From: a virus
Taxonomy: Duplodnaviria > Heunggongvirae > Uroviricota > Caudoviricetes
Direction: 5' to 3' (one strand)
IMG/VR virus record: IMGVR_UViG_2913167280_000003
Span: 1-64,000 of that record
Length of the DNA stretch: 64,000 bases
In this document: one piece after another, positions 2,849 through 35,699 of the stretch
Position numbering within the stretch: position 1 is the stretch's first letter
Layout: each line of letters opens with the position of its first letter
The notes under the pieces: generated by a model
The model's database searches: none
What the model saw: the letters and a program-made list of their open reading frames with translations, nothing else
Told to the model about the DNA's origin: nothing
Translations under genes and position numbers: made by a program

Positions 2849-5800
2849 CCTCGCCAGCTGCGTGCTGCGCCTTGATGTAGTTCTGAAGGTCGATAGTAGC
2901 CTGTTCTTTCTGGCGAGCGCGTTGCGCTGCTTTCGCCTTATCCATTTGAACCTGCATCATAGCCAAACGTTCGCCGTCATCCTTAGCGGTATACATCTGC
3001 ATTTCGATCATGTCGTTGGCGTCGGCGTTCTCCATTTCTGACTTATCTGAACGGAGAATATCGGATATCCAACCAGCTTTACGTTTCAGTGTCTTCAGGC
3101 GGTATTCATCGAAAGAACCCTTGCCGCAGTAGTAGTGAACGCGAACGCTTGCACGGTTGGAGCCAACACGGGCGCCGCGACCGTTACGCTGTGCAATACT
3201 GGCTGGAGTCCACGGCAACGTCAGGTGGTGGATATCCGTCGTTCCTCGATGCAGGTTGATACCCACCTCTGCCTTTTTGTTGCAGATGATGATCGGGGTC
3301 CGGCCCTCCTGGAAGTCGGCAGCAATCTTTTCCAGCCCGCCCAGCGACATTTCATTTTGCTGCGCGATATAGGCGTCATACAGAGCCATTTGCTCGTTGT
3401 ATTTCGCTATCTGTGCATCTGTTGGTTCATCCGGTAGCTCTTTCGGAGGTTTAACCGCTTTCAGTTTCTTACCGGTTTTACCTGCCTCTGCAACCGTCTG
3501 AGCATTCAGGATCCCCACCTTTGAAGGTTCAAGGTTAAGAGCATTGCAGATAATGCGCTTGAGCTTCTGGTGCTGCGTTTTTTCATCGGTGAAGATGATT
3601 TGCTTACCTTCCGGGAAAAACTCCTTCAGCGTGGCAATCAGCTTCGCGTATTTGGGCGTAACGGGGTGAGTTACGGTCTGTTCGTCAATGCCAAACCTGG
3701 CCAGGCGCTTATTCACTTCCTGCTCGAACGCTTCCGGAACCTGCAACTGAATAAACTCGCCCTTATCTATCAGGGAGTATTGCGATTGTTGCGTGATTGA
3801 ATCATCACTGTCGTCGTCTTCGCTGGTGGCTTGTTTAGGCAAACTGTCCGCCAGCTGCTGCACCGCATCGGCGTACTCCGGCAGGAAACGATAGGTGATC
3901 CGGCGATAGTACAGGTCCATGTCAGTACATACGCGGTCCATATCCCTGATTATTGAGAAGATCGGACGGGCTTTCTCGTGCTCAATCACGCCGTCTTCAT
4001 TGACCGAGGTCGTTACGCCATTGTTGGCTTTGGCCGCCGCTTCCACCTGCTGACGCAATTCTTCATACGCCGCCAGTTGTTCTTCAGTAAGTGGTGCATC
4101 CTGCTGGTGCTCGTCCAGCTCCGGGATCTCCACGGTATCCTTAACGTCTTCCGCCGTTTTAAGCGTTGTCCACCGATGGAATATACCGCGCAGCGCATCA
4201 AGGTTTTCAAAGCCCACCAGCGCCATTTTTTCTTCAACTTCACCGCTTATTTTCTGTACCGCTTCCAGCCTGGTCTTGCCGAAGAATTTAACGAAGTCAT
4301 CAGGACCGTAGATCCCCATCTTCTGCCAGTATTCCTTCGGCAGAACATGAAAAAGCATGTTGTATGCATCGATCGGGGTGTTAACGACTGGCGTTGCAGT
4401 CAGGAGAACCGGTCCGCGCCCGCCATTCTTTTTCATCAGGTACGCGTTTTTGATTGCCATATCTCTCGCCGATTGCGCTACCGCGCTGGTGGGCAGATAG
4501 GCCAACTGTGACGCTTCGCGACCATTTTTATAGCTATTGCGGTAGTTGTGGCCTTCGTCGGCGATCACGCTGTCGAAGCCCATATCCTCAAAGTACGGAT
4601 ACTTCTCTGCTTTTTCGGTGCCGGTATCTGAATACTCCGACAATATCCGGCGGCGCGCCGCCTCTTTGCGATGGGAATCGGAATCCATTGCGCTGGCTAC
4701 GCGCCCGGCAGCAACGAAGTCATAAAGCATATCCTGTGCATGCTCATCTACGGTGTCATCGCGTAGCGGAATGCGGGCGTATTGTTCTTTGGTAAACACG
4801 ACTGCACGGTAATTTGAGTGCAGGATCGCGTTCATCCGCGCCGTGATAGTGGCTTCATCTGCCAGCTTAAGGGCATCGCGCATAAGTGGAGTGCCATCAG
4901 CATCAAGTACAGGTTTACCGTTCTCATCGAGCACCGGCGCCTGGCGAATCTGATCGCCGTCCATCAGTACATCCAGACCGACGAACAGGTAGTTACTGAA
5001 GGCTTCTTCACTCAGGAACTCTTTTGCTTCGTAATACCAGTTTTCCAGCACTGATTTAGGCACTACATAAGCAGTACGGGTGGAGCGACCGTTCTCATAG
5101 TTGAACGCCTCAAGCGCCAGCGCGGTCGTGGTTTTACCTATTCCAGTACCGAATCCCATAATGCCGCGCCCATCTTCGGACAGTCGGCGCACCTCGCTAT
5201 TCTGGTAATCAAATGGCTGTCGCTTACCGCTTAATCCCTTCAACCCAAGCGGATCGCCAGAATGTTCATACGGGATATTGCTATTGAAAACAGTGTTGTA
5301 TTTGGCAACCAGCTCATCGTAGCGATCATGCGTCTTGAGCCACTTATTGAACTGCTCCTCAAGCAGAGCCATCTGCTCGCGGTACCCGTTCGCCGTCGTG
5401 CTATCTTTGCCACCGATACGCGCACCATTGAGATACTTTTCCAGCTGTGCCGGGAACCCGGTCGCGTTTTCTCCTGATTTACGGTCCCACTCGTAGCGGA
5501 TCTCGCCTGTTTCTTTATCCTTGCGCTGGACGACACCGTATCGGTGCCCGACGAACAGACCATCACCACCGTGATAGGTGTCAGAAACCATTTCGTCGCC
5601 TTCCAGCTGCACTGACTGCACATAGCGCAGATCCGGATAGCCGTTTTCCTGCAAAAATTCCAGAATGACGGAACGGTCGAACCAACGGCTATTGAGCTTA
5701 AACCGGATATTCTCTGCTGGCGTCTTGATGCGCTTCTCTTCGATCGCTGCCAGCTGATTAAGGACGTTGTTCTTTACTGGACCGTCGGGGAGTGTGGCAA

Positions 5801-18604: not shown

Positions 18605-19216
18605 TTAATTTCCTGCTTTCAGTTGCTTAAGACGGCGTTTTAGTTCGCCATTTCGGGCCTTTTCGTTATTGAGTCGGCCCGTCTCCTTATCCAGCTTCGC
18701 CCGCAAATCGGTGATCTGCTGTTGATTGAAAGACACCGAGTTCTGCGCGGACTTATAAGCGGCAGCCACCTGAGCATTCCTCTGTTTTGCCTCTTGAAGG
18801 CGCTGAAAATTGGATTTAACTGCCGGTTTCTTGTTTACCGGATTGGCAACACGTTTCGCTTTGGCGATCAGTGATTTCTGGAATTTTGCGGAGTTTTTGC
18901 GGGCCGCTTGCCCCATGACGGTACCAAGCGTCTTGATATCCGGCGACTGAGCGTTAGGAATAGCTTTTCCATTCAGTTTCACAGACGATATATCGCCAGT
19001 ATCGTTTACCTGTATGGCAAGAATTTGTCCGTCGTTAAGAACCAGCTTTGCGGTTTTAACTTTAACGCCATCTTTCGTTGTTGCGCGGTTGCTGGAGTCA
19101 ACCTCAATCACCGTCACACCGGTTTTATTGATCGCCGTGATAAGGGATTTCAGCCCCTTTTCATTAACCTGGTCAAAATCGACCGTTGTATACTTATTTT
19201 TCGTCATCTGACACAT
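18605..19216 (-). CDS. hdf: Hdf-like protein
   Basis: 203-aa ORF immediately upstream of darA, overlapping lydB. Confidence 0.45.
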   Translation of the reverse strand: MCQMTKNKYTTVDFDQVNEKGLKSLITAINKTGVTVIEVDSSNRATTKDGVKVKTAKLVLNDGQILAIQVNDTGDISSVKLNGKAIPNAQSPDIKTLGTVMGQAARKNSAKFQKSLIAKAKRVANPVNKKPAVKSNFQRLQEAKQRNAQVAAAYKSAQNSVSFNQQQITDLRAKLDKETGRLNNEKARNGELKRRLKQLKAGN

Positions 19217-19637
19217 CCTGTGCGAGATTTATTACGTAACTTCTGCGGATTTGCTGAGTAACAGGGAAAATCCGATACAACGGGTTAATGAACGAGTCGC
19301 CATGCGTAACCATGACGTTGAAATGCCACAGCCGTTCTCCTTTACCCATATATTCAGTGGGTATGTATAACCATTCGCTGTTTTCGCCCTGTTCAGCCGA
19401 TGTCAGACAACGTTGCTCGCCTTCAATCACTGTCGTCGGCTTCTGAACATCGCGGATCCAATACCTGACCGTTGCGCCGCGTAAAAAAGGAAATTTGGAC
19501 CGGTATTTGAACGGCACCCGGATGAAGCCCGGTTTAATTTCCACTTCACCAAGCTCTAAATTCGTGATGTCCTTGCGTTTTAGCAAATAGCGATCGGCTA
19601 AGGCTAACGCAAGAGCGCATACACCCCAGCCAATCAT
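19194..19637 (-). CDS. lydB: LydB-like antiholin
   Basis: 147-aa ORF immediately downstream of the holin-like gene with a 4-nt overlap. Synteny with P1 lydA-lydB. Confidence 0.5.
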   Translation of the reverse strand: MIGWGVCALALALADRYLLKRKDITNLELGEVEIKPGFIRVPFKYRSKFPFLRGATVRYWIRDVQKPTTVIEGEQRCLTSAEQGENSEWLYIPTEYMGKGERLWHFNVMVTHGDSFINPLYRIFPVTQQIRRSYVINLAQDVSDDEK

Positions 19638-19963
19638 TTCCCGCCTCCCTTTTTCACCAAACTTGTAAGAACATTCAGAATGCTATCGATATTCACTCGT
19701 TTCATCCCTGAAATCACCTCATGACCGTTATTGCTGGCTATCGTTACCATTAAGTACGTAATTGATAACTCCCAGCCCTCGTGTTGCCCCAATAGGTACG
19801 CCACCGCGCCAGCTGTCACTGCAACAAAGATCTCCGTAACCAATCCCAACAAATTGCCAGACTGGCGACCGTCTCGGACATCCATCAGGAACGTGCCTAT
19901 CCCACCAATTACTGAAAGCAGGAGCGCAATAGCAACTGGAGCTAATTCCTGTGTGTCAAGCAC
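19634..19963 (-). CDS. lydA: Holin (LydA-like)
   Basis: 109-aa protein with three hydrophobic helices (LAPVAIALLLSVIGGIGTFLM, IFVAVTAGAVAYLLG, ITYLMVTIASNNG) and a charged C-terminus. Confidence 0.6.
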   Translation of the reverse strand: MLDTQELAPVAIALLLSVIGGIGTFLMDVRDGRQSGNLLGLVTEIFVAVTAGAVAYLLGQHEGWELSITYLMVTIASNNGHEVISGMKRVNIDSILNVLTSLVKKGGGK

Positions 19964-20037
19964 AAGTTCCCTCCTACGTTGTCAGGAGGTAATGGTATGC
20001 AAAGTAACTTCTCAACCGGTCATGTTGCATAAGAGGC

Positions 20038-20301
20038 TTACCTATTCAACTGACTTTTGGAACCTTCAATAATGAGCCTGCTATTGGCGCTGAAAATAAG
20101 AACCATGCAGCTCTGAAGGCTTTCATTCATATCCTTATATTCCGCGAGATACATGCCAATAAAGCCAGCAAGTACGGCGGAAATACATTCGGCCAGCAAT
20201 TTCTTGCATGAAGGCTCGTAACGGTTTTCACATAGCCCAGTCAAATACGAATACACCCCACCAAGAAGGGATAACATCACGATATGTACATAAAATGTCA
20301 T
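20038..20301 (-). CDS. Small membrane protein (LydC-like position)
   Basis: 87-aa ORF with two hydrophobic segments between lydA and the cin remnant. Confidence 0.4.
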   Translation of the reverse strand: MTFYVHIVMLSLLGGVYSYLTGLCENRYEPSCKKLLAECISAVLAGFIGMYLAEYKDMNESLQSCMVLIFSANSRLIIEGSKSQLNR

Positions 20302-20429
20302 TTTTTACCTATACAACAGTAAGTTGAACAACATTTGAGAACGGTATGCACTTTGTGATTTCCACACACACTGGTTTTTGTTAATTAAAATCCGCAGCTT
20401 GCTATAAATAACGATAGTGAGCAGAAAAT

Positions 20430-20669
20430 ATGCTAATAGGCTAAGTACGCGTATCAACAAATGAACAAAACACTGCTTTGCAACGAAATGCCCTTAAAAG
20501 CGCAGGATGTGAGCTAATTTTTGAGGATAAGGCGAGCGGCAAAAAGGCTGAACGCCCTGGGTTAAAAAAGGTTCTGCGTATGCTTTCCAGAAGTGACACC
20601 CTGGTCGTATGGAAGTTAGAGCGTCTTGGGCGCAGCATACGTCACTTGGTTGTGCTGGTGGAAGATTGA
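20430..20669 (+). pseudogene. cin: Serine invertase (Cin/Gin/Hin family) remnant, nonsense at codon 5 and truncated after about 79 codons
   Basis: Reads MLIG-stop-VRVSTNEQNTALQRNALKSAGCELIFEDKASGKKAERPGLKKVLRMLSRSDTLVVWKLERLGRSIRHLVVLVED. TAA at 20442-20444 replaces the conserved Tyr5 codon and the frame stops at 20669; the rest of the enzyme is absent. Confidence 0.8.
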
Positions 20670-20906
20670 AAAGTTAGCAGTTATCACAGCTACCCGATCA
20701 CTATCCGGAGCAATGAAGAAGATAGCGAGAATGGAAGAAAACACCTAACAATTTGATACATGATATTTTTACACGAAGAGCGAAACTCCTTTTGCAGGAA
20801 ATGGTCGCAATTACCTTTATGATGAAGGGTTGTCAACAGTTATTCTATTTTTTATAATCCACAAAAAAACAATTCAGGGTATTTTATATAAAAGTCAAGG
20901 CAACAT

Positions 20907-21449
20907 ATGGATATTGATTTTCTTAAAGAGTGTCTCCTAGTTGAAGTTATTGGTGGGGGTAATAAACAATTCTCATGGCCTCGCGCCATTCGCCATGCCT
21001 GGCGGCAACCTAAACGCAGGTTTCTTTTTTGGTGGCGTATAGCATCTTATCTATATGATATGGACAACAAATATCTAAAAAAACTCGGAAAGAAAATTAA
21101 CAGAAATTTATCCTTTAAATACAATACTGATATTGAACTTGGAGCATCAATAGCTCCTGGATTATACATTGGACATTATAGTGGCATTGTTATTACAAGA
21201 TATGCAACGATTGGTAGAAATTTTAATATAAGGCAAAACACAACTATTGGTTTAAAAAATTCTAACACTAACAGAGTTACCATTGGAGATAATGTTAATA
21301 TTGGAGCAAACTCCTGCATAATCTCAGACCACATCACTATAGGTGATAATGTAAAAATAGGGGCTTTTACCTTTGTAAATAAAGATATACCTTCAAATTC
21401 AACTTATTACACCAGGAAAATCAATATATGCAAGGAAAGGGAGGCGTAG
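20907..21449 (+). CDS. Hexapeptide-repeat (left-handed beta-helix) acetyltransferase
   Basis: 180-aa ORF in an AT-rich segment. Tandem [LIV]-G-x4 repeats: IGHYSGIVITRYATIGRNFNIRQNTTIGLKN, TIGDNVNIGANSCIISDHITIGDNVKIGAFTFV. Confidence 0.75.
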   Translation: MDIDFLKECLLVEVIGGGNKQFSWPRAIRHAWRQPKRRFLFWWRIASYLYDMDNKYLKKLGKKINRNLSFKYNTDIELGASIAPGLYIGHYSGIVITRYATIGRNFNIRQNTTIGLKNSNTNRVTIGDNVNIGANSCIISDHITIGDNVKIGAFTFVNKDIPSNSTYYTRKINICKEREA

Positions 21450-21464
21450 CCCCCCCCTTCTTTA

Positions 21465-22043
21465 CTATTTCATAAATTCTGGCCACTCGATATTAGGAGC
21501 ATCGTCAGGGTTAACTCGGTTAAGTAACACCCGGTATCTTTTCCATTTTATCAAACTTACTTTCTCTTCTTCTGTAGCCATATCCAAATCGACAGCATCT
21601 TGCAGAGTGGCAATAATTTCACCTGCATATGCAATCTTCTCCTTCTTCTGAGACTCAGCCGCTCTTACAAATGCATCACGCTCTGCCTTCTCATCATTAA
21701 CCCACACATTTCCATTCCATTTTTGATAATCCCCATCCGGGAAAATAGCTGTCACGTCTGGAGGTAATGCGCCAAGTTCAGAAATATAAATGGCTGCACC
21801 CGTTTTCGTTTCGTAGACGGTCTTTCCGCGATGGTCCTCCACCAGATGCCATTTCATTTCATCAGCATTAAATACAGCAGCAAAACCTGCTGGAATATCT
21901 GGAGGCGCAATATCTGTGCTGTTTGCAGGAATACCCGTATGTGGAGGAATATATGCGTCACTTTCACCAATAAATTCATTTGTACCATCGAGATAATTAA
22001 ATACGCGAATAGTTTGTGCTTCTGCACTCATTTTAAAACTCAT
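21465..22043 (-). CDS. U: Tail fibre assembly protein (U-like)
   Basis: 192-aa ORF immediately downstream of and overlapping the tail-fibre gene. Assigned by position and size. Confidence 0.6.
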
Positions 22044-25000
22044 TATGCAAGCCTCACTATATAATTAAATGCAATGTTTTTGACGGTGTTTTCGGTATTA
22101 CCCGTTGGATTTACCGTGATAGTGTGTCCGTGTGTTCCCAATGCCAAAGTGTGTGCATGGGCGCCAATACCAACAGTATGATTGTGAGCACCAATTCCTA
22201 CTGTATGGGCATGGTTGCCTGCAGAGCTTGTTTGAACTGTATTCCGAAGGCCATCTGCATCCCAATCACCTCTGGTGCCAGATGCTTGAGCTCCTGTTAT
22301 GTAACCATGTGTATGGGCACCTGTTGTATTGGTTGTTTTTGTTCCGTAATCAAATGTACTGACTGTTTTCGTGCCGTAATCAAATGAGCTGGTCGTTTTA
22401 GTACCGAGGTCAGTATTTGATGCACTGGCACTGTGAGTATGCGATTTAATCCCGTCCTGTTCCTGTGACAATACGGCACGCCCACTGGCGGGTTTGCCCT
22501 TGATTGTCCAGCCGCGCATATCAGGAATAACACCAGAAGGATAGGCTATAGCCAGTTTCGGATATGCTGCCTTATCAAACGTCTGCCCCTGCATGATTGC
22601 ATAGCCTGCAGGTGGTGTATCTGATGGCCACGGCAGCGGAACACCTGGCGGAAACGCTTCAATATTTGCCGAGCCGTCAAATTTTACGCCGTTAATTGTC
22701 CTTGCCGTTTTCAGCTTTGTTGCTGTAGCAGCATTGCCAGACAGTTCACCAGAAAGGCCAGCACTGAAGGTTTGCTTCGCCGCCCATGTCTGGGCTTCGT
22801 CAATTATCGGCACTCGTCTTGCCGTGATCGTGCGGCTTCCCGGATTTCCTGAGATGCGCACCATGAAGAAACGGTAGTTTGCTTTACTTACAGTGCTGCG
22901 CCATACATGCATTGAGCGCCCCGTACCGGAGTCATCACTTGGGCCAACCGCGATGTTTATTAGGTTTCCATCAATGACGCCCCAGTCCATGCCGTCGGGA
23001 ATGTTAGTCATATTATCAAGCCGAACGGTTATCAGACTGCCCGGAACGAAATCGTAGGTCTGCCAGTCCAGGCTGGTGAGTTTTGCCACTGCGCCACCGA
23101 TACCCAGATTCAGGGGCAACGAAAAGGAGTTATATACTTCTCGCCATTCGGTCCATTTGCTCCCGGCGTAGACGCGCTCAAAAGTGCGCCCCTGTGTGGT
23201 TTCTGCTTTCCCTGTGGTTGTGTAACGCTGCCAGACAGACACACCATCAAAACGTCTGATTACTTCCAGTATCCCAAGCAGTGTTGCTCCAGCGGTATCC
23301 TGCATTGGACCGTTTGTTGCCTTCCCTGTAACGCTGTAAATGCCAGGTGAAGTCAGATCATTCAAATCACCTTCGTAATAACGACATTCTGACTGGTGGC
23401 CTACTCTTGACCACGGTTCCCACTGTGGGTTCTTTGCATCCCATGCAGCAGAAAGACAGCGAACATACACATTTCCGCGGCGGGTCGTGTAACGTTGTGT
23501 TCGTGAGTAACCACCACCTTCAAGGACTTCAAGAAGTCCCTGCCCATAACTGCCTTCTTCTGGATAGTTGCGTTCAAATGACGCTATAGAGCCACTACTG
23601 TTTCGCCATGAGCCAAGATGCTCTGCGCCTCCGAGCGTATTCAGGTCAATGGTTGTACTCAGAGAGCGTGTTGCTGACTGAATCTGTCGCCAGTAGCTCC
23701 AAGGGCCGTCAGAGCCATTCCAGGAACCAGAAAGGTTGCGCATATAAACATTGCCAGTTCTGGTGGTATAACGCTGCATTCCGGAAAAATTACCGCCATT
23801 GAATACCTCAAGAACACCGACGGCACCGTCTTCCGGGAAATGTTTCTCCAGTGTTGCGTTGGATGATGTGGATTTATACCAGCCCCCCACATAATCCTTA
23901 ACTGGACCGAAAGTATTCAGGTCTGCATCAACTGGCATTTCGCCGTTGTTTTTCATAAACGTCAGGCTGGTGACGTCAAGGTTTGCAGGCGTCAGAGAAA
24001 TATCTTTAGAACCGTCAAATGAAACGCCGTTTATCTTTCTGGCTGTTTTTAATTTCGTCGCGGTATCGGCGTTCCCCGTCAACGCACCGCTGATCCCACC
24101 GTTGAAAGTCTGGCGTGCGCTCCAGGTGTTAGCCGTACTCAACAGGGGGATCTTTTCGCCGCTTGTGCCGAGTTCTCTTAAACCAAGGTATTGGATAACA
24201 GCAAGGACACTTGTTTTAGCCAGAATATCGCGACCGACTGACGTTAAATCAGTCTGGGCAACAGTATCTTTACCGGTAAAGTACGGCAATTTATTTGCGC
24301 CGGTCGCAAGGCCAGCGAGCGCGGTTAAAGTTGCATCCAGAGGCTGTTTGCCTGCCAGCGCATTGGTCATTGTTGTCGCAAAGTTCGGGTCATTGCCAAG
24401 TGCTGCTGCAAGCTCATTCAGGGTATCAAGAGCTTCTGGTGATGAGCCGACCAATGCAGATATAGCAGCCCGTACGTAAGCAGTCGTAGCGATCTGCGTA
24501 TTATTTGTTCCCTGTGCAGCGGTAGGCGCAGTAGGGATTCCCGTTAATGCAGGACTTGCCAAAGGCGCTTTAAGAGCCAGTGCGTTATTGATAGTGGCAC
24601 TGAAATTCGGGTCGTTATTGATAGCTGCCGCAATTTCTTTCAGCGTATCCAATGCTCCAGGAGCACCATTGATAAGTGCAGTTATAGCGGCCTTAACAAA
24701 GGCTGTATTTGCGATCTGCGTGCTGTTTGTACCTTGAGCTGCCGTCGGCGCGGTTGGCGTTCCTGTCAGACTCGGGCTTTCTATCGGCGCTTTGGTATCA
24801 GCCAGATCTTTTACAGACTTGACGGCTTTAGGGGTAGCCGCCATTGTTTCGCTGTCGCTGTCAGTTGCGCTACTGAGCTGAACTAACCCCTTTTGCGTTG
24901 TGCTTGCATCCTGCGCCGTATACTTGCTTTTCGCCAGATCGTAGGCTTTTTTAACTGCCAGAGAACTTGCAGCGACATCGCTTCTGCTGCTGGTTACAGA

Positions 25001-25546
25001 GTCTGAAATTTCAATGCCAATCGTGCGGTTGATACGCTCTGATGTATCAATCATCTCCTGGGTAATGGCAGATACCCCGGCAGGGATATTCACCGTACAA
25101 ACAAGCAGCTCACCATCTCCTAACTGATATGAATCGGTATAAGTTCTGGCGACAAATTCAGCCGCATGAATATGTGAGGCGGTATTAACCTGATAGGTGT
25201 CTTCTCCAAGAAGGTATCTTCCCTTCAGCACAATTGCATATTTTTTGCCTGCACTAAGTGCAAGGGAGATATCCCTACGGTGTTGAATAGTTACCTGATA
25301 GAATTCGCCAATATCCACTGACGCCGCGCCAGCAGTTTTATCACCATCCAGTGAGGTGATTAACAGGTTCATCCCACCGCCAGGCTTCGGCAGGAAACCG
25401 GCATAAAATCCTGGGTCAACAATTCCCCTGAATTTTCGGTTTAGCGCGGCTGACAGATATGGTTCGTGGTATTGCACATCAGCCACCAGAGCCAGTGACT
25501 CGGGGGATGGGTAAGTAACTGATGTGACAACTGTAACGTCATTCAT
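22043..25546 (-). CDS. S: Tail fibre protein (S-like)
   Basis: About 1167 aa from the internal ATG at 25546 (AAGGA RBS). Two tandem ~75-aa fibre repeats ([10 protein letters not shown]...NDPNF) and a His-rich C-terminal region ([22 protein letters not shown]). Confidence 0.8.
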
Positions 25547-25557
25547 CAAGCATATCC

Positions 25558-25992
25558 TTATGCTATAGTCGAGTTGATGGCCATAACTGCGGTATATGTT
25601 TTGCCCACATACAGCGAGTCTTCCTGAACACAAATAATTGCGATGGGCTTATTCTCGTTATCCAGAACAACCAGAGTGTTGAATGGGTAGTTTTTCCCTT
25701 CCTGCAACTGGCTTTGATCAAGGTCCATTCGGACAGTAATTATCCCGCCAGAGTAGGTAGGGACGAGGTTGATGGTGCAAAATTGACTGGTCAGTTCTGC
25801 CAGCTCGAAAGTCTTTGGCAGTTCTCCAATCTCATAAGTGCCATCTTCATTTTTGGTAACCAGTGAGCTGGTACCGAAAACGGCCTTGCTGATTAAAAAT
25901 CGAGAGCCTTTGTTAATGGACGATTCAGCGCGCCGCTGATAGTAATAGTCCAACAACTGACTCTTATAGAGGTTTGTTGAGACGTCAGACAT
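25558..25992 (-). CDS. Tail fibre-associated protein (R-like position)
   Basis: 144-aa ORF immediately upstream of S in the same operon. Confidence 0.4.
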
Positions 25993-26022
25993 GATTTTCC
26001 CTAATCAATGTTGTGAAGCCTC

Positions 26023-26046
26023 ATTGTAAGAGAAGTCACTTGTCAC
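26023..26046 (-). promoter_or_regulatory. P1-type late promoter candidate upstream of the R-S-U tail-fibre operon
   Basis: Minus strand reads GTGACAAGTGACTT, CTCT, TACAAT about 30 nt upstream of the R start. Confidence 0.45.
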
Positions 26047-26070
26047 CCCGCCCGGCGGACGGGGTGATTG

Positions 26071-26910
26071 TCAGGCATAGCTATCCAGCAACAAATCATC
26101 TGCACGAGTGCGATCAAACGTAGGCGTTGCTTTCACAATAGTGCCGCCAGGCGTTGCGGTGATCGGGGCGCTAATCGACGTAACTCCAGTAAGTGAAGTT
26201 GTATCCGAAGTTTCAAACCAGCAGTACGCTTTTTCAGTATCAGAAATCTCGTTCAAAGTGATCATGTCGGCCTGTTCATTCACAACAACCGACAAATAGA
26301 GCGTAAGCCCATCAAACACTATATGCAGTGGTAGTAGAGGCTTTACGAACTGATTAAACTTTCTGAGAATTTCTTCTGTGATTGCGGACTGATCTATCGT
26401 GCCGGTAATTCCCATTGTCCGGGCCAGGTCGTTTATGGGAATGCTGATCATCCCTCTGGAAGTCAGAAACATCTCGCCGAATGTGCCGCCGGTAGTTTCC
26501 AGTGTGCTTTCTGGAATCAGGACCGTGCCATAGGGATGACGTTCAAGGTCTACCGGGGCATATATCGGATCCCATAAAACAGAAATACCGTTAAATTCGC
26601 GGTAAATTGTCTGGTTTATAGGGCGTTCAGTTCCCTTAAAGTGGATCTCGTCAAGCCGCTGTTGTAACAGCATTGGTACGGAAGACGAATTCGACGTTCT
26701 GATAGTAAAGAACTGGCCAAGTTCATTTGTCCTGGTCTCCAGATCTTCCTTGCTCATGGAGAAAATAGACTTCCGGTTGGTAATTCGCTCCAACCATGGG
26801 TCAACAAAAGTGTCCATCATTGACTGAACCAAATCAGCCAATGATTTATAGAGCAATGACTTTTGCTTAGCTGATGTAAGCCGGTTATTAAACCAGGAAC
26901 GTTGCATCAC
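26071..26910 (-). CDS. Baseplate/tail morphogenesis protein (gp16-like position)
   Basis: 279-aa ORF in the sit-baseplate operon; synteny only. Confidence 0.35.
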   Translation of the reverse strand: MMQRSWFNNRLTSAKQKSLLYKSLADLVQSMMDTFVDPWLERITNRKSIFSMSKEDLETRTNELGQFFTIRTSNSSSVPMLLQQRLDEIHFKGTERPINQTIYREFNGISVLWDPIYAPVDLERHPYGTVLIPESTLETTGGTFGEMFLTSRGMISIPINDLARTMGITGTIDQSAITEEILRKFNQFVKPLLPLHIVFDGLTLYLSVVVNEQADMITLNEISDTEKAYCWFETSDTTSLTGVTSISAPITATPGGTIVKATPTFDRTRADDLLLDSYA

Positions 26911-28340
26911 TCCTCCTCATACGAAATATTAAAGGTGGAGTTTTCTGTATCCAGATAAACGAAATCGTAAAAGCCGTTGGACTCATTCCACTCGACAAAT
27001 TCCAGATAAAAATCGCGGAAATAGCCAAGCGTTTCGATATACGCCCAAACGTCTTTTTTCTTAATCAGGATGTACTTACCAACGCGGTTTGGGTCAAAGA
27101 AAGCTGAGTCGCGCCCGAATTTTGTTTCCAGCGCCGACGTCAGTTCATCGGTCACGTTTTCAATGGTCAGGCTTGCCGATATCCGCCCGGTGATTGTTAT
27201 CTTAAATGGTAGTTTTCTGACCTCTTTATAAGAGAATTTCTTGTTCAGCTCATTCGGTACCTTCTTAAAGGCAGCCAGGATCATTTCTTCAAGCTCTGAC
27301 TGACTTTTATTTGGATGCCATCCTGAAATAAATATCTTATTGATATTCTGAACATTATAAGCACCATCTAATTTCTCTTGCTGGCCCTCACCCCAAGCTT
27401 TTACCCAGGACAGGCCTGGGATGTTACGCACCAGAAAATACGTATAGTCCCCGCCCCATACGACCTGATCATCATAGGCAAGGTAATATTGTGCACGGTT
27501 ACGTGTGATCTCCGTTGTTTCGGCATCGGTACCGGCGGTTATAGGTGTCGTTGTCTTAACTGAAATCGAGTTAGCTAAATTAGCCGCAGAATCGACAGGC
27601 GTCAGATTTTGGCCAGCAACCAGAGTTATATCGCCGTTGGTACACCAGACCTTAAGCGTAATTGTCGAACCTTCCGGCGGTATTTGCCCAATTAGTCCAT
27701 CGCCGAATCGAACGCCCAACTGTTCGGATGGTTTATAAAACTCAACATAGACCTGGCTTTTACTACCAGCTAACCGGAACATAGTGCTGGAAGACCACTG
27801 CGTAGTCTTACCATCGGTCGTCACGAATACTTCCAGCTTATAGCAGACAGCAGTGAGAGCCTTTGATAATACGACTTCCAGAAATTCTTTGGCCGCCGTA
27901 ACGGTATATGTCACCTCCTGAATTTCCAACTGCGCCACTTCTACCGTACCGGCGCCGTCAACCAATCTGCATACATCCATAGTCATGTAAGGGTACTGGT
28001 CGTCAGATATTAAAGGCGTGTTTTTGGGGATTACCGCTGGGGCATCTTCACTTGTGGCTGTGATCTCAACCATCCCCGATGACGGTGTTGGTTTGGTACC
28101 AACGTAACTGTTCGTTTCTGCCGCTGCCAGGATAGAGGAACGCCGCGTCGCGGTCGATATAAAGCCTTCAGCCAGCGCCGCATCGGCATACTGAAAGCAC
28201 CTGTATACAATCTGGGTAATAAACAATGTCAGCATCGAGACAAATTGAGAGCCGACAAACTTCGACCAGAATGAATCTTTCTCGACAAGCTCTTCAAACT
28301 CTGCGCGAATACTGTCTTTAGTCGGTGTTGTTTTACTCAT
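26907..28340 (-). CDS. Baseplate protein (BplA-like position)
   Basis: 477-aa ORF overlapping neighbours by 4 nt on both sides in the baseplate operon. Confidence 0.4.
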   Translation of the reverse strand: MSKTTPTKDSIRAEFEELVEKDSFWSKFVGSQFVSMLTLFITQIVYRCFQYADAALAEGFISTATRRSSILAAAETNSYVGTKPTPSSGMVEITATSEDAPAVIPKNTPLISDDQYPYMTMDVCRLVDGAGTVEVAQLEIQEVTYTVTAAKEFLEVVLSKALTAVCYKLEVFVTTDGKTTQWSSSTMFRLAGSKSQVYVEFYKPSEQLGVRFGDGLIGQIPPEGSTITLKVWCTNGDITLVAGQNLTPVDSAANLANSISVKTTTPITAGTDAETTEITRNRAQYYLAYDDQVVWGGDYTYFLVRNIPGLSWVKAWGEGQQEKLDGAYNVQNINKIFISGWHPNKSQSELEEMILAAFKKVPNELNKKFSYKEVRKLPFKITITGRISASLTIENVTDELTSALETKFGRDSAFFDPNRVGKYILIKKKDVWAYIETLGYFRDFYLEFVEWNESNGFYDFVYLDTENSTFNISYEEE

Positions 28341-31600: not shown

Positions 31601-32085
31601 TTACTCCCTGACTTTCCAATAAAACGACCACGCGCATCGCGTTGGTTTTGGCTTTTTTGCGTACCGCCTTTTTGACCAAACATTTCGCGGGCGTGTTCGG
31701 CTGCTTCGGTCCGTTGCGCCTTTACATCTTCTGTTATAGCCTTCCTGCGTCGTTTTTTATCCTTTCGCGTAGTTGATTTGGCCTGCGGTTCCTGTAGAGC
31801 AACATCCTCCTGAACTACACGAGGAACGTCCCCTAAATTAAGCCGTTTCATTGCCTCAACAATAGGGTCCACTGATGGCGCTTTGGCCACAAAGTCTGGC
31901 TGGGAATGTTCGATTGTGCGATTTAATGCCGACACACTGCGAGAGACAGGATCAACAGTTGCAACTCGCCCCCCTTTCAAATCTTCAACAGCTTCCCGAA
32001 TACCTGCAAGCTCTTCCAGCTCTTTTGCGCTGGCGGTTTCAACCGTCCTTATCACATCGTCAATGTTGGCGTTTTTTCTTTCCAT
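28693..32085 (-). CDS. sit: Structural injection transglycosylase / tape-measure-like protein
   Basis: 1130-aa ORF with a soluble lytic transglycosylase core (AIAATESGGNPYAKSQTGALGMFQF ... AYNAGFG) inside a long Gly/Ala/Lys-rich repetitive protein. Confidence 0.85.
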   Translation of the reverse strand: MERKNANIDDVIRTVETASAKELEELAGIREAVEDLKGGRVATVDPVSRSVSALNRTIEHSQPDFVAKAPSVDPIVEAMKRLNLGDVPRVVQEDVALQEPQAKSTTRKDKKRRRKAITEDVKAQRTEAAEHAREMFGQKGGTQKSQNQRDARGRFIGKSGSKAASEDARAERAEKARRKEDDERLNAESGLLKKLSKVAEGIGNPSETRAVDALGYAVADPLWAAGKELGGISKEVGGSLNGARKSIADVIRGNDDNSRRKGFFRRKSQSSADVVQVNTQKRTVQELQDQTSEIKEGNDKILRALEQIGKNTGKKKGGLLSKLFSLLGKGAGGVASLLMGRGMLKKAGALAFGALGAKKLVGMLRGGGKKTLAHEGGDLAARAAGKLGLKAVGKGALRAIPLVGTVAGGIYDAVTGWNDTEAQRRAFGLKSGQDPSFQQKAAYTLANVLDMGGLVSGISSAIGDVLKSLGFEDIGNMLQSFSTESIAQAIDSGITNLETYISNIGDTISTKFDDYTAKIGDAVSAWFSDTSNKLLEKLDAIKDFFTVDNLKQVFSDAIDSAIDFIKNPGKHIKEAAGNIWDGVKNLPGKALDAAVDAVKNTPAAMIVSKIPNPIGEANAKEITPELKAPVNSHQETSDSKTESDAKQTNIATRVINAALDTAKDSNKTVKETANQIINANAVETGNSAVRKIDTAIGQNSSSSSSRNTTGTRNDIQKAADTYNNGNLDVKVGSLGAEGKANLDKLAPYFAELENKYGLPEGTLYAIAATESGGNPYAKSQTGALGMFQFTGIAREETGLAKGESFDPVKSAEAAALLMSKYLKQANGDLNEAITAYNAGFGTINKWKKGTGDLSKENREYAIKVNTHRARYLGGEIYTPGAGAQGGAQSGVMGPLPDNAVIDQSTGLAFTPGDSPFEKDGLVDKIGNAVGVNDLVNKFMNGRGMRREVVQGTLEERARGKGTATAAGNVYVDTPMPVEEARPVANNSSYFDQLGAQMGIDGLFDKVRNAPGMRKSNAPEPATTSQVTTVANDLQQPTGRMQIDGQVISDLGGSGAKPTMQLADNTVSLDGETKRLFAQMTSLLARIEEHTKDSAKGQGTVVKVSTPQPGVMRTVPLSIDDPLMNDYARVD

Positions 32086-32166
32086 GATCTTATCGCCTAC
32101 CGCTTCGGTTTAAGTTTTTCTTCCAGTTTCTCCAACAGGAAAAACGCATAGGATTCAGTGAGCCTT

Positions 32167-33048
32167 TCAGCGTCCTGAATCGGTATACCCCCATACAAAA
32201 CCAGGTTGGACACTAAGGTCTGATAGCTTTTCAATCCCCACCTGTGGAATGAAGTCGGTAGCCCGAAAGGGCACCCACAGACGGGTATACGCACCCTCTG
32301 TGGACTCCTTTGTATCCTGGTTTGGGCATTTGTGCGGCGGGAGACGAAGTCGCATTTCGCCTTTATCGATGTAGCACGGTAAACCATGTTCGAGCTTTTC
32401 ATGAGCCAGCCGGATGTGTGCCGCCAGCTTCATAAATTCAGTATCAATGGCCATCCGTTTGATCGTTTCATAACGACGCTCAGCCTGCTCTTCACGAGTA
32501 CCGCTAACATCGTTATAAAGTTCACACTGATAAGCGAATTCCCAAAAACGCAAATCAACGATCGCTTCTTTGAATTCCGCGTCGTCTTCAGGTGGCAATG
32601 CTGCACGGCGCATCCCCAGCATTTCCATTGCCCAACCATCAAGCGGCACGATACGCCATTGATAAGGCACGCCCTCTACAGACACCTCAATATCGTCAAT
32701 GAACGGTTCCACTTCCAGGACCTGGATATCTTCAGCCAGAGCATTCATATCGCAATCGTAATAATGCTCTTTACCGCAATGTTTACAGGTGTAGGTAAAT
32801 GTCTCGATCGGTGTTTCGCGGGAGCCAGTAAATATCCACCATAACGCGGTAATCCGGTCCTGTGCCGTCCATTTCAGTGGATCATGTTTCGCAGGTTCAG
32901 CCAGCAAGGCTTTTAAATACGCCGTTGTTTGCTGTTCTTGTTCCTCCGGTGTTATCGAGTTGAAACGCATCGCATCAGCAATATTTGGCTGACGGAACTG
33001 GATTAATTCAGTTGGCCGCGATGGTAGAGGGAAAAGGGGTAAAAGCAT
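32167..33048 (-). CDS. Virion morphogenesis protein (PmgB-like position)
   Basis: 293-aa ORF downstream of sit in the same operon. Confidence 0.35.
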   Translation of the reverse strand: MLLPLFPLPSRPTELIQFRQPNIADAMRFNSITPEEQEQQTTAYLKALLAEPAKHDPLKWTAQDRITALWWIFTGSRETPIETFTYTCKHCGKEHYYDCDMNALAEDIQVLEVEPFIDDIEVSVEGVPYQWRIVPLDGWAMEMLGMRRAALPPEDDAEFKEAIVDLRFWEFAYQCELYNDVSGTREEQAERRYETIKRMAIDTEFMKLAAHIRLAHEKLEHGLPCYIDKGEMRLRLPPHKCPNQDTKESTEGAYTRLWVPFRATDFIPQVGIEKLSDLSVQPGFVWGYTDSGR

Positions 33049-33684: not shown

Positions 33685-34304
<620 letters not shown>

Positions 34305-34445
34305 CATTGAGTGGGAATATTGCCGTCTGGGAGTAATATGGTATCATTAAGTTAGAGTAGGTAGTGTAGATGGAATGAGGAGTATCATATGGTTATCACA
34401 CAATCAGGTTGCTTTGAGTCAGGTTGTTTTGAGTAAAACAATAAA

Positions 34446-34470
34446 ACGCCCTTTAATGGGCGTATTTTTT
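34446..34470 (+). terminator. Terminator-like hairpin between the pmgC-like promoter and the membrane-protein gene
   Basis: ACGCCC-TTTAAT-GGGCGT followed by ATTTTTT; A-rich on the 5' side, so possibly bidirectional. Confidence 0.45.
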
Positions 34471-34480
34471 AGGATTTAAA

Positions 34481-35374
34481 ATGCATTCTTTACAGAAATA
34501 CATAAAACATAAATATACTCACTTAACTTTTTTTCTCTCATTACTTTTTTTCATGATATTTGAATCGCGAGAAGATCTTATCAAGAAAATATTATCTTTT
34601 TCTCTCAATGAAGTTTTACCATTCTTAATGTTTGCGTTCTTCTCCGTATTTATCAGCATAACGATAAAGGAAAAGATAGCAAAGAAATACCCAGAAACAA
34701 ACGATGGGATTACCATTATAGCTTTAATCTTTGGTGTAACACTATATAGTGTGTTTATCTTATATTATTTATATGGTGATGTATACCAATCCACAATTGC
34801 TTTACTTATAAGTTCTGTGCTACTTGGTTCTGGGTGGTGGGTTCAGGCTACTGTGAGTAAAGTAGCCGCAAGAAAATCACACACCTTAAATACACTAATG
34901 AATCAAAGAAACAGTGAATTATTTCACAAGAAAGTTTCATCGGTAGCGAATACGTTCGGGCTTAGAAAAACCATAAATGAAATTATTGCCAAACAAAGAC
35001 TTGTCCCAAATGATAAAGATTTAAAAAATAAAAAGGTCCATGATGAATACATATCAGCAGGTAATGATATGTTCTTCGTTCTTAATTATTATGAATTTAT
35101 CTGTTCAGGAATAATAAATGGGGACTTTGATGAAGATTCAATGAGAGAATGTCTTGGACAAATTGTTCCAGGTCTCGAAGTTAGAGCATTTCATTTTATA
35201 AGAATTGCAAGAGAAATTTCAGGGAGTAGCTGCTTCTGTAATTTTGTCGCTGTTTCAGACAAATGGTCTACTAATGGAGGCTCTCTTATTCTCAGACACG
35301 AGAAAGGAGAACCTGTGATTAATAACCTGACCCATTGCTTTGAAGAAACAGACTGTTTTAACATAACTTCTTAA
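34481..35374 (+). CDS. Predicted 4-TM membrane protein with ~170-aa cytoplasmic C-terminal domain (accessory gene)
   Basis: 297-aa ORF, very AT-rich, AGGA RBS 6 nt upstream. Hydrophobic helices LTFFLSLLFFMIF, VLPFLMFAFFSVFISITI, GITIIALIFGVTLYSVFILYYLYG, TIALLISSVLLGSGWWV. Bracketed by ~90-bp direct repeats. Confidence 0.6.
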   Translation: MHSLQKYIKHKYTHLTFFLSLLFFMIFESREDLIKKILSFSLNEVLPFLMFAFFSVFISITIKEKIAKKYPETNDGITIIALIFGVTLYSVFILYYLYGDVYQSTIALLISSVLLGSGWWVQATVSKVAARKSHTLNTLMNQRNSELFHKKVSSVANTFGLRKTINEIIAKQRLVPNDKDLKNKKVHDEYISAGNDMFFVLNYYEFICSGIINGDFDEDSMRECLGQIVPGLEVRAFHFIRIAREISGSSCFCNFVAVSDKWSTNGGSLILRHEKGEPVINNLTHCFEETDCFNITS

Positions 35375-35380
35375 TATTTT

Positions 35381-35407
35381 GTAACCCATAATCGCTTTAT
35401 GGGTTAC
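35381..35407 (+). terminator. Hairpin downstream of the membrane-protein gene
   Basis: GTAACCCAT-(9 nt)-ATGGGTTAC perfect 9-bp stem, 7 nt after the stop codon. Confidence 0.4.
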
Positions 35408-35609
35408 GTTAAATTTGCAATAAAAAAATCAATCGCCGGGCTTTAAGCATCCATCGTTTTTGGCTTGTTGATATAACTTACTTAGCCCAGAAAGAGGGAA
35501 TGTGGCAATTTTTTCATTATCAACATAAGCATCAATCACATTAGCATTTGAATCTGCTGCATCCTGCCAAAAGGCATACCACCAAGAATCTCCAACCATT
35601 GACCCAAGA

Positions 35610-35699
35610 GGGATTTGACGTCTTCGAGTAATTGTCGTTGTGTCATTGACACCTCGTAGAATCTGGTGTGTTAACCGATTCTACGAGTTATCATTTGTT
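35610..35699. repeat. Direct repeat copy 2 (~90 bp), duplicate of the pmgC-like 5' end and promoter
   Basis: 85/89 identical to 34215-34303; retains the ATG and first 12 codons ([12 protein letters not shown]) and the ACAAATGATAA-N4-TAGAAT motif. Confidence 0.85.

What the first reader, a model, noticed from the sequence alone, without database searches (positions are those of the whole stretch)
20430..20669. cin invertase is a nonsense-containing truncated remnant; the invertible tail-fibre segment appears to be lost
The reading frame begins with the canonical serine-invertase N-terminus (MLIG, then VRVSTNEQN with the catalytic Ser context) but has TAA in place of the conserved Tyr5 codon and stops after about 79 codons; the downstream sequence is unrelated AT-rich DNA. 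Where P1 carries the alternative tail-fibre genes (Sv', U') inside the C-segment, this element has an acetyltransferase gene. The host-range switch is therefore inactivated and the phage is locked into one tail-fibre specificity.
Basis: partly seen in the sequence, partly recalled or inferred. Interest (0 to 1): 0.7.

Follow-up and report, generated by a model that had tools for sequence, protein, structure and literature searches.

The report
Dead cin invertase in P1-like prophage
This P1-like phage-plasmid has only a broken stub of the cin DNA-invertase gene and has lost the flip-flop tail-fibre segment, so it probably makes a single, imported type of tail fibre; this kind of decay is already known in P1 relatives.

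Summary
Window 20430-20669 holds the first 236 nt of a P1/P7-type cin gene (92% aa identity to P1 Cin residues 1-79). It has TAA in place of Tyr5 and a TGA stop at codon 80.

Homology to P1 ends at 20665|20666 and resumes only at about 24008, inside S. Missing are the cin 3' half, cixL, Sv', U', U and most of Sv. In their place is a 3.3-kb foreign block:
- a relic of a Tn3-family terminal inverted repeat (20667-20710);
- a low-GC gene cassette with its own promoter-like site and a hexapeptide-repeat acetyltransferase (20907-21449);
- a lambda-Tfa-type chaperone (21465-22043);
- a P2-like/phiNP-like distal fibre fused in frame to P1 S.

One perfect cixR site survives in S (24173-24198). The 64 kb holds no partner site, no other invertase and no second S/U copy.

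The TAA recurs in three independent plasmid records, so it is not a sequencing error. Records with the same joint but an intact Tyr5 show that the truncation came first.

Truncated cin and lost C-segments are already published for P1-like plasmids. Interest is low. The side observation worth noting is that this acetyltransferase family often lies next to tail-fibre genes.

The parts
20038..20301 (-). lydC holin gene; last P1-backbone gene to the left of the lesion
   Evidence: ORF. P1 homology 19001-20665 at 92%. P1 annotation.
20359..20391 (+). Homologue of the P1cin sigma-70 promoter. The RBS and ATG at 20419-20432 are identical to P1.
   Evidence: 32/33 and 14/14 identical to the P1 annotated features. 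P2cin is not conserved (15/27).
20430..20669 (+). cin pseudogene: 236 nt of cin 5' sequence, TAA at codon 5 (20442-20444), Ser9 codon at 20454-20456, TGA at codon 80 (20667-20669)
20448..20519 (+). Homologue of the recombinational enhancer that lies inside the cin 5' end
   Evidence: 68/72 identical to the P1 enhancer annotated at 31678-31749.
20665..20666 (.). Breakpoint: last cin base | first foreign base
   Evidence: Alignment A2 and blast end-points. The same joint is in 6 PLSDB plasmids and 1 IMG/VR contig.
20667..20710 (+). Relic of a Tn3-family terminal inverted repeat. Its inner end abuts cin. Its outer end faces right, with the terminal GGGG decayed to CGGA.
   Evidence: 35/38 match to the right IR of a tnpR-tnpA transposon in Aeromonas pBY3 (E 4e-4 against 7.3 Gb). 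That element's two IRs were verified. Pantoea pDSJ06 carries a solo copy. The window has no second copy.
20830..20858 (+). Promoter-like site TTGTCA-17-TATAAT (11/12), 49 nt upstream of the acetyltransferase ATG
   Evidence: This is a consensus match only; the total number of sites in the region is not above the shuffled expectation.
20907..21449 (+). 180-aa hexapeptide-repeat (LbH) acetyltransferase ('sat'); a low-GC accessory ('moron') gene
   Evidence: Pfam Hexapep 34.4 bits (cut-off 27). Below every NCBIfam cut-off (EpsC 82.6/150, CysE 71/210, WcaB 49/196). Full-length match to phrog_2154. No PADLOC hit. 82% aa identity to phiNP sat.
21465..22043 (-). Tail-fibre assembly chaperone (lambda Tfa type) in place of P1 U
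   Evidence: Pfam Caudo_TAP 125.6 bits. phrog_105. 71% aa identity to phiNP ORF5. Only 37% identity to P1 U over its C-terminal part.
22043..25546 (-). Intact mosaic tail-fibre gene S (1167 aa): aa 1-518 from P1 S, aa ~522-970 from a P2-like H, aa 951-1167 from a phiNP ORF6 / T4 gp37 / lambda Stf-type tip
   Evidence: 95% to P1 S residues 1-518. 93% to Peduovirus P24B2 and 78% to vB_EcoM-613R2. 84% to phiNP ORF6.
24008..24172 (.). Last ~165 bp of the P1 C-segment inverted repeat still attached to cixR
   Evidence: Matches both P1 inverted-repeat copies, 92% and 87%.
24173..24198 (+). Orphan cixR crossover site, embedded in the S coding sequence
   Evidence: 26/26 identical to P1 cixR. It is the only match with up to 3 mismatches in the 64 kb; 0 expected by chance.
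25558..25992 (-). R gene; the P1 backbone resumes here

Best explanation
The feature is a dead gene. An ancestral P1-like phage-plasmid carried the standard switch: cin, cixL, Sv'-U', U-Sv and cixR. In this lineage everything from cin codon 80 up to about 170 bp short of cixR (about 64 S codons downstream of cix) was replaced by foreign DNA.

The foreign DNA consists of a Tn3-family transposon-end relic, a self-promoted hexapeptide acetyltransferase gene, a lambda-Tfa-type chaperone and a P2-like/phiNP-like distal fibre. The distal fibre is fused in frame to the constant part of P1 S.

The cin stub then decayed neutrally. It acquired a Tyr5 nonsense codon and five further amino-acid differences from intact Cin (one of them, E79D, at the joint codon itself), including D64E in the conserved DRLGR motif.

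Three things are missing: a recombinase, a partner cix site and an alternative fibre arm. No inversion can therefore occur, and virions should carry one fibre type, with a tip of the family whose phiNP member binds the LPS outer core. The acetyltransferase is an accessory gene that travels with that fibre module.

Shown here: the truncation, the nonsense codon, the deletion limits, the orphan cixR, the intact S and tfa genes, and the order of events. Inferred: the loss of switching phenotype, the viability of the phage and what the acetyltransferase does.
For: - Sequence and homology limits.
- Synteny with the annotated P1 region.
- Only one cix site. No other Cin homologue. No second S/U copy.
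- The window spans P1 from lxc to gp25, and its non-P1 gaps hold no invertase.
- The TAA is present in three independent records. The joint occurs with an intact Tyr5 in L013 and pPSS-10_3. RefSeq itself flags the pPSS-10_3 copy as 'recombinase family protein, incomplete, missing C-terminus'.
- Against the intact JL22 cin there are 6 nonsynonymous and 4 synonymous codon changes.
- The foreign block is contiguous with phiNP sat-tfa-ORF6 at 75-76% nt identity over 20918-22633, with the same 15-bp gap between genes.
- Intermediate and parallel states exist. JL22 has an intact cin with a sat-tfa-stf arm inside its invertible segment. Ro157c2YLVW, deposited as a phage genome with STEC O157 given as host, lacks lydC and cin altogether but has U'-stub-sat-tfa-S.
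- Published precedent for truncated cin and lost C-segment in P1-like plasmids: PMC6906374.
Against: - About 30 kb of the element and the whole host genome are not visible. A trans-acting invertase (for example a host Pin-type enzyme) cannot be excluded. By itself it would still lack a second cix site in the 64 kb seen.
- The Pcin promoter, RBS, enhancer and cixR are all well conserved. This could hint at residual function. It is also explained by recent descent and, for cixR, by its position inside the S coding sequence.
- No expression or phenotype data are available.
Confidence: 0.9

Rival explanations
1. The TAA is a sequencing or assembly error, and cin is functional or at least full-length.
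For: It is a single-base difference (TAT to TAA) from P1 and JL22.
Against: The same TAA is in pHNCF11W-130kb, pRHB17-C14_2 and pTB91P2, from separate isolates recorded in China and the UK. Independently of the TAA, cin homology ends at nt 236 and a TGA follows. The C-terminal 107 residues, including the DNA-binding domain, are absent from the 64 kb.
Confidence: 0.01
2. The stub is retained because it still does something. It could act as a cis element: the Pcin promoter and transcript could read through into the acetyltransferase gene, or the Fis-binding enhancer could still matter. Alternatively a short N-terminal peptide could be made, for example the 63-aa TTG ORF at 20478-20669.
For: - P1cin promoter 32/33, RBS/ATG 14/14 and enhancer 68/72 identical to P1.
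- A cin 5' stub of similar or shorter length is kept in hundreds of P1-like plasmids.
- No clear terminator lies between the stub and sat on the + strand.
Against: - Ro157c2YLVW has deleted lydC and cin completely and still carries sat-tfa-S.
- sat has its own 11/12 promoter-like site 49 nt upstream.
- In the common IncY type the stub carries multiple stops and ends at a different point, nt ~177. That fits neutral decay.
- Any peptide would lack Ser9 (the TTG ORF) or be 4 aa long.
Confidence: 0.07
3. Switching persists by another route. A recombinase supplied in trans by the host or a co-resident prophage could act on the orphan cixR and a partner site outside the window. This would invert or exchange a larger segment.
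For: - cixR is 26/26 identical to P1 and the enhancer sequence is kept.
- From general knowledge, Cin, Gin, Hin and Pin can substitute for each other.
- Related plasmids have swapped in Min/Pin-like invertases on the opposite strand (PMC6906374).
Against: - No second cix-like site within 3 mismatches, no alternative fibre arm and no invertase anywhere in the 64 kb.
- cixR lies inside the S coding sequence, so its conservation needs no other explanation.
- An inversion with a distant partner would disrupt S without supplying a new C-terminus.
Confidence: 0.03

Closest known systems
Phage P1 cin / C-segment host-range switch (NC_005856: cin 31660-32220, cixL, Sv'-U'-U-Sv, cixR)
   Same: Same locus and same neighbours. 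The first 236 nt of cin are 94% identical (222/236), the enhancer is 68/72 identical and cixR is 26/26 identical. S residues 1-518 are 95% identical.
   Different: The cin 3' 325 nt, cixL, Sv', U', U and most of Sv are absent. There is a nonsense codon at Tyr5. The distal fibre and the chaperone are of foreign origin.
cin-defective P1-like plasmids pSvP1, pTZ20_1P and pJIE250-3 (Venturini et al. 2019, PMC6906374)
   Same: [quoted passage not shown] The authors conclude that the switch is likely non-functional.
   Different: Those lesions are attributed to IS-mediated rearrangements (IS26, IS2, ISEc84), or to replacement by a p15B Min-type invertase. Here the joint is with a Tn3-family IR relic, and the fibre genes are intact.
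P1-like phages JL22 (ON018986) and vB_EcoM-Ro157c2YLVW (NC_050153)
   Same: Both carry an LbH acetyltransferase convergent with a lambda-type tfa and a chimeric S at the same locus. Ro157c2YLVW also lacks a working cin (PMC9603915).
   Different: JL22 keeps an intact cin, both cix-bearing repeats and a Mu/P1-type Sv'-U' arm, so its sat lies inside an invertible segment. Their sat is only 47-49% identical to this one. Ro157c2YLVW deleted lydC and all of cin and keeps a U' stub.
Citrobacter rodentium phage phiNP ORF4-ORF5-ORF6 (sat, tfa, receptor-binding fibre tip)
   Same: Same three genes in the same order and orientation with the same 15-bp gap. Identity is 75-76% nt, and 82%, 71% and 84% aa. 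The phiNP tip belongs to the T4 gp37 / lambda Stf family, and the LPS outer-core GlcII residue is reported as its receptor (PMC9659904, PMC6456863).
   Different: phiNP is a 45-kb integrating myovirus. Its fibre is short (282 aa) and is not fused to a P1 S shaft. hicAB lies upstream of its sat, not a cin stub.
Small Tn3-family tnpR-tnpA transposon of Aeromonas salmonicida pBY3 (NZ_CP060033, 45173-48927)
   Same: 35 of 38 positions of its terminal inverted repeat match window 20669-20706.
   Different: Only one IR is present in the window. There is no tnpA, tnpR or res, and the terminal GGGG is not kept. The inner end, not the outer end, abuts the disrupted gene.

Membership tests
Functional Cin/Gin/Hin/Pin serine DNA invertase gene | Uninterrupted ORF of about 185-190 codons | tested here: not met
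   TAA at codon 5 and TGA at codon 80.
Functional Cin/Gin/Hin/Pin serine DNA invertase gene | Complete N-terminal resolvase catalytic domain with the Ser9/10 nucleophile | tested here: not met
   The Pfam PF00239 match covers only profile positions 2-87 of 145. The Ser9 codon is present but lies downstream of the nonsense codon. D64E falls in the conserved DRLGR motif.
Functional Cin/Gin/Hin/Pin serine DNA invertase gene | C-terminal helix-turn-helix DNA-binding domain | tested here: not met
   tblastn finds no match to Cin residues 80-186 anywhere in the 64 kb.
Cin-type invertible segment | Two cix sites in inverted orientation flanking alternative fibre arms | tested here: not met
   One site only, at 24173-24198. 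No Sv', U' or second S/U copy. No long inverted repeats in 19000-27000.
Cin-type invertible segment | Recombinational enhancer inside the 5' end of the invertase gene | tested here: met
   68/72 identical to the P1 annotated enhancer. This is sequence only; Fis binding was not tested.
P1-like (Punavirus) phage-plasmid | Collinear P1 gene order with high nucleotide identity | tested here: met
   92-97% identity to P1 and JL22 over most of 234-63999, in P1 order.
Tn3-family transposon | Pair of ~38-bp terminal inverted repeats with a GGGG terminus, plus tnpA | tested here: not met
   A single IR-like sequence, with the terminus reading CGGA and no transposase. It is filed as a relic, not an element.
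Hexapeptide-repeat (LbH) acyltransferase | Hexapeptide repeats scoring above the Pfam gathering threshold | tested here: met
   PF00132 34.4 bits against 27; PF14602 33 bits against 27.
Serine O-acetyltransferase CysE (the name used in database records) | Score above the equivalog cut-off | tested here: not met
   TIGR01172 71.1 bits against 210.65; PRK11132 44.4 against 397.
Serine O-acetyltransferase CysE (the name used in database records) | N-terminal SATase helical domain | tested here: not met
   180 aa against 240-336 aa for the solved serine acetyltransferase chains matched. The match is to the LbH part only, and no SATase_N hit appears in Pfam.
Lambda Tfa / Caudo_TAP tail-fibre assembly protein | PF02413 domain and position directly downstream of the fibre gene | tested here: met
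   125.6 bits against 22.1. The tfa start codon and the S stop codon share base 22043 (1-nt overlap).

The most novel reading that the evidence does not exclude
The acetyltransferase may not be a random passenger. It could be part of a mobile three-gene 'adsorption plus receptor-masking' unit: sat, then convergent tfa, then the fibre tip. Under this reading the enzyme acetylates the LPS or polysaccharide receptor that the linked tip recognises. The lysogen, and debris from lysed cells, would then stop adsorbing phages that carry the same tip.

This would resemble O-antigen or capsule O-acetylation by other prophage-encoded enzymes, such as the hexapeptide O-acetyltransferase NeuO of prophage CUS-3. 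That example is from memory and was not tested here.

Gaining such a unit, as JL22 has done inside its C-segment, would then set the stage for repeated loss of the cin switch, as seen here and in Ro157c2YLVW.

Supporting observation: in IMG/VR, 50 of 72 loci have a recognisable convergent tfa within 400 bp downstream of a sat homologue. That is 12 of 27 clusters at 80% aa identity, plus at least 5 further loci (clusters) judged by eye. The same layout occurs in phiNP, Hafnia yong2, 613R2, JL22 and Ro157c2YLVW.

The null explanation is equally plausible. From general knowledge, the 3' end of fibre operons is a common insertion spot for accessory genes. That would give the same linkage without any functional coupling.
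Probability: 0.2. Interest if true: 0.5.

Novelty: new member of a known kind. Interest (0 to 1): 0.2.

Why it matters
This is mainly an annotation and host-range point. The element should be annotated with a cin pseudogene, an orphan cixR and a single chimeric fibre. Its adsorption specificity should be predicted from the phiNP/gp37-type tip, not from P1 S/S'. This is relevant because P1-like phage-plasmids spread resistance genes by infection (PMC9600943, PMC9603915).

It also adds a dated series of states for how the P1 switch is dismantled:
1. an intact switch with a sat-tfa arm (JL22);
2. a truncated cin with Tyr5 intact (pPSS-10_3, L013);
3. truncation plus the nonsense codon (this window);
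4. cin wholly deleted (Ro157c2YLVW).

The recurrent linkage of one acetyltransferase family to fibre modules is a cheap, testable lead on lysogenic conversion.

Tried and rejected
- **Second cix site.** Searches with the 26-nt cixR and with the palindromised 20-nt core, up to 3 mismatches, found only 24173-24198.
- **Quasi-cix site at the cin breakpoint.** The nearest resemblance is CTTGGTT at 20645-20651, about 14 nt from the joint. I rejected it as the crossover point (read directly).
- **Second Tn3-type IR, which would make the sat cassette a bounded element.** None found in the window.
- **Another invertase or a second S/U copy.** None found.
- **Origin of 20711-20906.** Only the same six plasmids match, plus a weak 76% match of 20820-20903 to an unannotated IncF intergenic region. 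No phage source was found.
- **Exact-match scan for the 23-nt joint.** Zero hits in 100,044 species-representative genomes and one contig in IMG/VR.
- **The window's own record.** It is absent from the phage, PLSDB and complete E. coli collections. The best full-arrangement match is pPSS-10_3 at 91.5%.
- **PADLOC.** No defence-system match for sat.
- **Rfam.** Only a sub-threshold IS009 hit inside tfa, taken as coding homology.
- **Literature on the sat-tfa linkage.** Nothing beyond the JL22 authors' remark that the function is unknown.
- **Not attempted.** Structure prediction of sat, because any LbH fold match would not identify the substrate.

Full report
**What is at the coordinates**

Window 20430-20669 (+) reads MLIG*VRVSTNEQN...LVVLVED*. 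The TAA is codon 5 (20442-20444), and a TGA at 20667-20669 closes the frame at codon 80. tblastn with P1 Cin aligns residues 1-79 at 92% identity (E 4e-44) and finds nothing else in the 64 kb. With Tyr5 restored, the 79-aa fragment matches only positions 2-87 of the 145-position Pfam Resolvase profile.

At the DNA level 222 of 236 nt are identical to P1 cin. Identity stops abruptly at 20665|20666: P1 continues GCTGCGTGAC and the window continues TTGAAAAGTT.

**Context**

The window is a P1-like phage-plasmid. It is collinear with P1 and JL22 at 92-97% identity from lxc to gp25. To the left of the stub lie ddrB, ddrA, darA, hdf, lydB, lydA and lydC, exactly as in P1.

P1 homology resumes at about 24008 and runs through the constant part of S into R. 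What P1 has in between is absent: the cin 3' half, cixL, Sv', U', U and most of Sv. tblastn with P1 U, U', S and Sv' finds no second copy anywhere in the window. No long inverted repeat exists in 19000-27000.

A 26/26 match to P1 cixR sits at 24173-24198 inside S. About 165 bp of the C-segment inverted repeat is still attached to it. It is the only cix-like site (up to 3 mismatches) in the window.

**What replaced the switch (20666-~24007)**

1. *A transposon-end relic.* The first ~44 nt (20667-20710) match the 38-bp terminal inverted repeat of a small Tn3-family tnpR-tnpA transposon in Aeromonas pBY3 at 35 of 38 positions (E 4e-4 against 7.3 Gb). They also match a solo copy in Pantoea pDSJ06. 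I verified that the Aeromonas sequence is one of a pair of terminal repeats flanking tnpR-tnpA, inserted in a split antirestriction gene. In the window the inner end of the repeat abuts cin. The outer end faces right and its GGGG terminus has decayed. No partner repeat exists. A plain insertion into cin would give the opposite polarity, so a further deletion or some other event is required. I could not reconstruct it.

2. *An acetyltransferase cassette.* A low-GC stretch (0.29-0.39) carries an 11/12 promoter-like site at 20830-20858 and a 180-aa hexapeptide-repeat acetyltransferase at 20907-21449. The protein passes the Pfam Hexapep threshold but is below every NCBIfam equivalog cut-off (EpsC, CysE, WcaB, NeuD). 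It lacks the N-terminal domain of true serine acetyltransferases. It matches phrog_2154 (function unknown) over its full length and has no PADLOC hit.

3. *A new chaperone.* Fifteen bases further on, and convergent, lies a lambda-Tfa-type chaperone (21465-22043; Caudo_TAP 125.6 bits).

4. *A mosaic fibre gene.* S is intact (1167 aa, 25546-22046) and has three parts: residues 1-518 from P1 S (95%), residues ~522-970 from a P2-like H protein (93% to P24B2), and residues 951-1167 from the phiNP ORF6 tip (84%).

sat, tfa and the tip are contiguous with phiNP ORF4-ORF5-ORF6 at 75-76% nt identity, with the same spacing. phiNP ORF6 is reported as the receptor-binding protein of the T4 gp37 / lambda Stf family, and LPS outer-core GlcII as the receptor (PMC9659904, PMC6456863).

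**Is the nonsense codon real, and which lesion came first?**

The identical joint occurs in six PLSDB plasmids and one IMG/VR contig.

| Record | Codon 5 | Source |
|---|---|---|
| This window | TAA | |
| pHNCF11W-130kb | TAA | |
| pRHB17-C14_2 (UK, pig faeces) | TAA | |
| pTB91P2 (China) | TAA | |
| IMG/VR contig L013 | TAT | |
| pPSS-10_3 | TAC | |

pPSS-10_3 lacks lydC and has a different upstream region. The truncation is therefore older and has moved between backbones. The TAA is a later mutation in one sub-lineage and is not a sequencing error. RefSeq already annotates the pPSS-10_3 copy as an incomplete recombinase pseudogene.

Compared with the intact JL22 cin, the stub has 6 nonsynonymous and 4 synonymous codon changes. 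One is D64E in the conserved DRLGR motif. This fits relaxed constraint, although the numbers are small.

**Parallel and intermediate states**

- JL22 keeps an intact cin and both cix-bearing repeats. It has a sat-tfa-stf arm inside its invertible segment, opposite a Mu/P1-type Sv'-U' arm (PMC9603915).
- Ro157c2YLVW, deposited as a phage genome with STEC O157 given as host, has lost lydC and all of cin. It keeps a U' stub followed by sat-tfa-S. If that record represents a working phage, cin-less P1-like phages with this module can be viable.
- The common IncY plasmids keep only ~177 nt of a heavily decayed cin stub, next to a different invertase on the other strand. PMC6906374 identifies that invertase in pJIE250-3 as p15B Min-like.
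- The E. fergusonii-type records look derived from the window type. Their homology leaves the window at 21474 and re-enters at 25125-25523, a duplicated S 5' fragment. A separate U'/U/S set follows.

**Mechanistic reading**

*Shown:* there is no recombinase ORF, no partner site and no alternative arm. S, tfa and R are intact.

*Inferred:* no C-segment inversion occurs, and virions carry one fibre type whose tip is of the phiNP/gp37/Stf family. The acetyltransferase is most simply an accessory gene with its own promoter that came in with the fibre module.

The conserved Pcin promoter (32/33), RBS (14/14), enhancer (68/72) and cixR (26/26) need no functional explanation. The first three are recent leftovers, and cixR lies inside coding sequence. 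Rival readings are listed with their refuting tests: sequencing error, a functional stub or cis element, and trans-acting inversion. Together they get about 0.1.

**Comparison with the literature**

Venturini et al. 2019 (PMC6906374) described truncated cin genes and lost or modified C-segments in pSvP1, pTZ20_1P and pJIE250-3. They concluded that the switch is likely non-functional and host range restricted.

The JL22 paper lists lydC-cin-Sv'-U'-U-S as one of eight hypervariable regions among P1-like phage-plasmids. It also notes the sacF/tfa substitution and states that its role is unknown.

This finding is thus another instance of a known kind of decay. The particular allele, a cin stub joined to a Tn3 IR relic followed by sat-tfa and a chimeric S, does not appear in the papers I could search.

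**Side result**

The same acetyltransferase family lies convergent to a tail-fibre chaperone or fibre gene in phiNP, Hafnia yong2, 613R2, JL22 and Ro157c2YLVW. In IMG/VR, 50 of 72 loci with enough downstream sequence show this layout. After dereplication at 80% aa identity that is 12 of 27 clusters, and at least five more loci (clusters) have a convergent fibre or chaperone gene by inspection.

This may mean functional coupling, in which the enzyme modifies the receptor that the fibre recognises. It may equally mean that the end of the fibre operon is a common landing site for accessory genes. I cannot separate the two with these tools.

**Limits**

About 30 kb of the element and the whole host genome are unseen. 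There are no expression or phenotype data. The origin of the cin|IR joint is unexplained.

Noticed in passing
window 20907-21449 with 21465-22043; loci L019-L099, L006, L007, L014-L016: The phrog_2154 hexapeptide acetyltransferase family is repeatedly found convergent to, and within ~6-95 bp of, a tail-fibre assembly or fibre gene in unrelated phages. By tblastn this holds for 50 of 72 IMG/VR loci, or 12 of 27 clusters at 80% aa identity, and at least 5 more by inspection. In P1-like JL22 the gene lies inside the invertible C-segment.
   Followed up: partly
window 20667-20710: A solo relic of a Tn3-family 38-bp terminal inverted repeat lies exactly at the cin breakpoint, with its inner end towards cin. 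Pantoea pDSJ06 has a solo copy cut at the same inner edge. How the joint formed is unexplained.
   Followed up: partly
L102 (Salmonella pTB502) 3429-3700 compared with window 20430-20669: A different cin remnant loses homology within about 3 nt of the same cin position (~nt 236). It continues into unrelated DNA that carries a Min/Pin-like invertase on the opposite strand. This could be a recombination hotspot in cin or a coincidence.
   Followed up: no
window 22046-25546 (-): The tail-fibre gene S is a three-part mosaic: a P1 shaft (aa 1-518), a P2-like middle (aa ~522-970) and a phiNP/gp37/Stf-type His-rich tip (aa 951-1167). It has three ~90-aa internal repeats (DNA repeats spaced 267-279 nt at 23215-23777).
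   Followed up: partly
L002 7907-9400 and L013 1523-1921 compared with window 21474 and 25125-25523: In E. fergusonii-type plasmids the same cin-stub/IR/sat block is followed by a duplicated 400-bp fragment of the S 5' end and then a separate U'/U/S set. It looks as though a window-type ancestor lost tfa and most of S and then acquired a second fibre cluster.
   Followed up: partly
window 58023-60402: The P1 block carrying the tRNA genes, plp, tciABC, ban and dbn is replaced by 2.4 kb of unrelated ORFs; one (58049-58468) is rich in paired Cys-x-x-Cys motifs and may be a zinc-finger/HNH-type protein (judged by eye, not scanned). ARAGORN finds no tRNA in the whole window, and tblastn finds no ban, dbn, tciA, plp or rlfA homologue.
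   Followed up: partly
window 47692-51461: The plasmid replicon and partition module differs from JL22 and P1. RepA is 41% and ParA 58% identical to the JL22 proteins, so this is a different incompatibility type on a P1 backbone.
   Followed up: no
window 34304-37599 and 41037-42225: Two further non-P1/JL22 inserts lie at the sim/ImmI and rlf positions, which are known variable regions. The first includes a 297-aa ORF that looks hydrophobic (possibly membrane-associated; not checked) and a 394-aa ORF of unknown function.
   Followed up: no
window 21502-21700 (-): A sub-threshold Rfam hit to IS009 (49.5 bits against a gathering score of 117, E 8.6e-10) lies inside the tfa coding sequence. It is most likely coding-sequence homology to prophage tfa genes and not an sRNA.
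   Followed up: no
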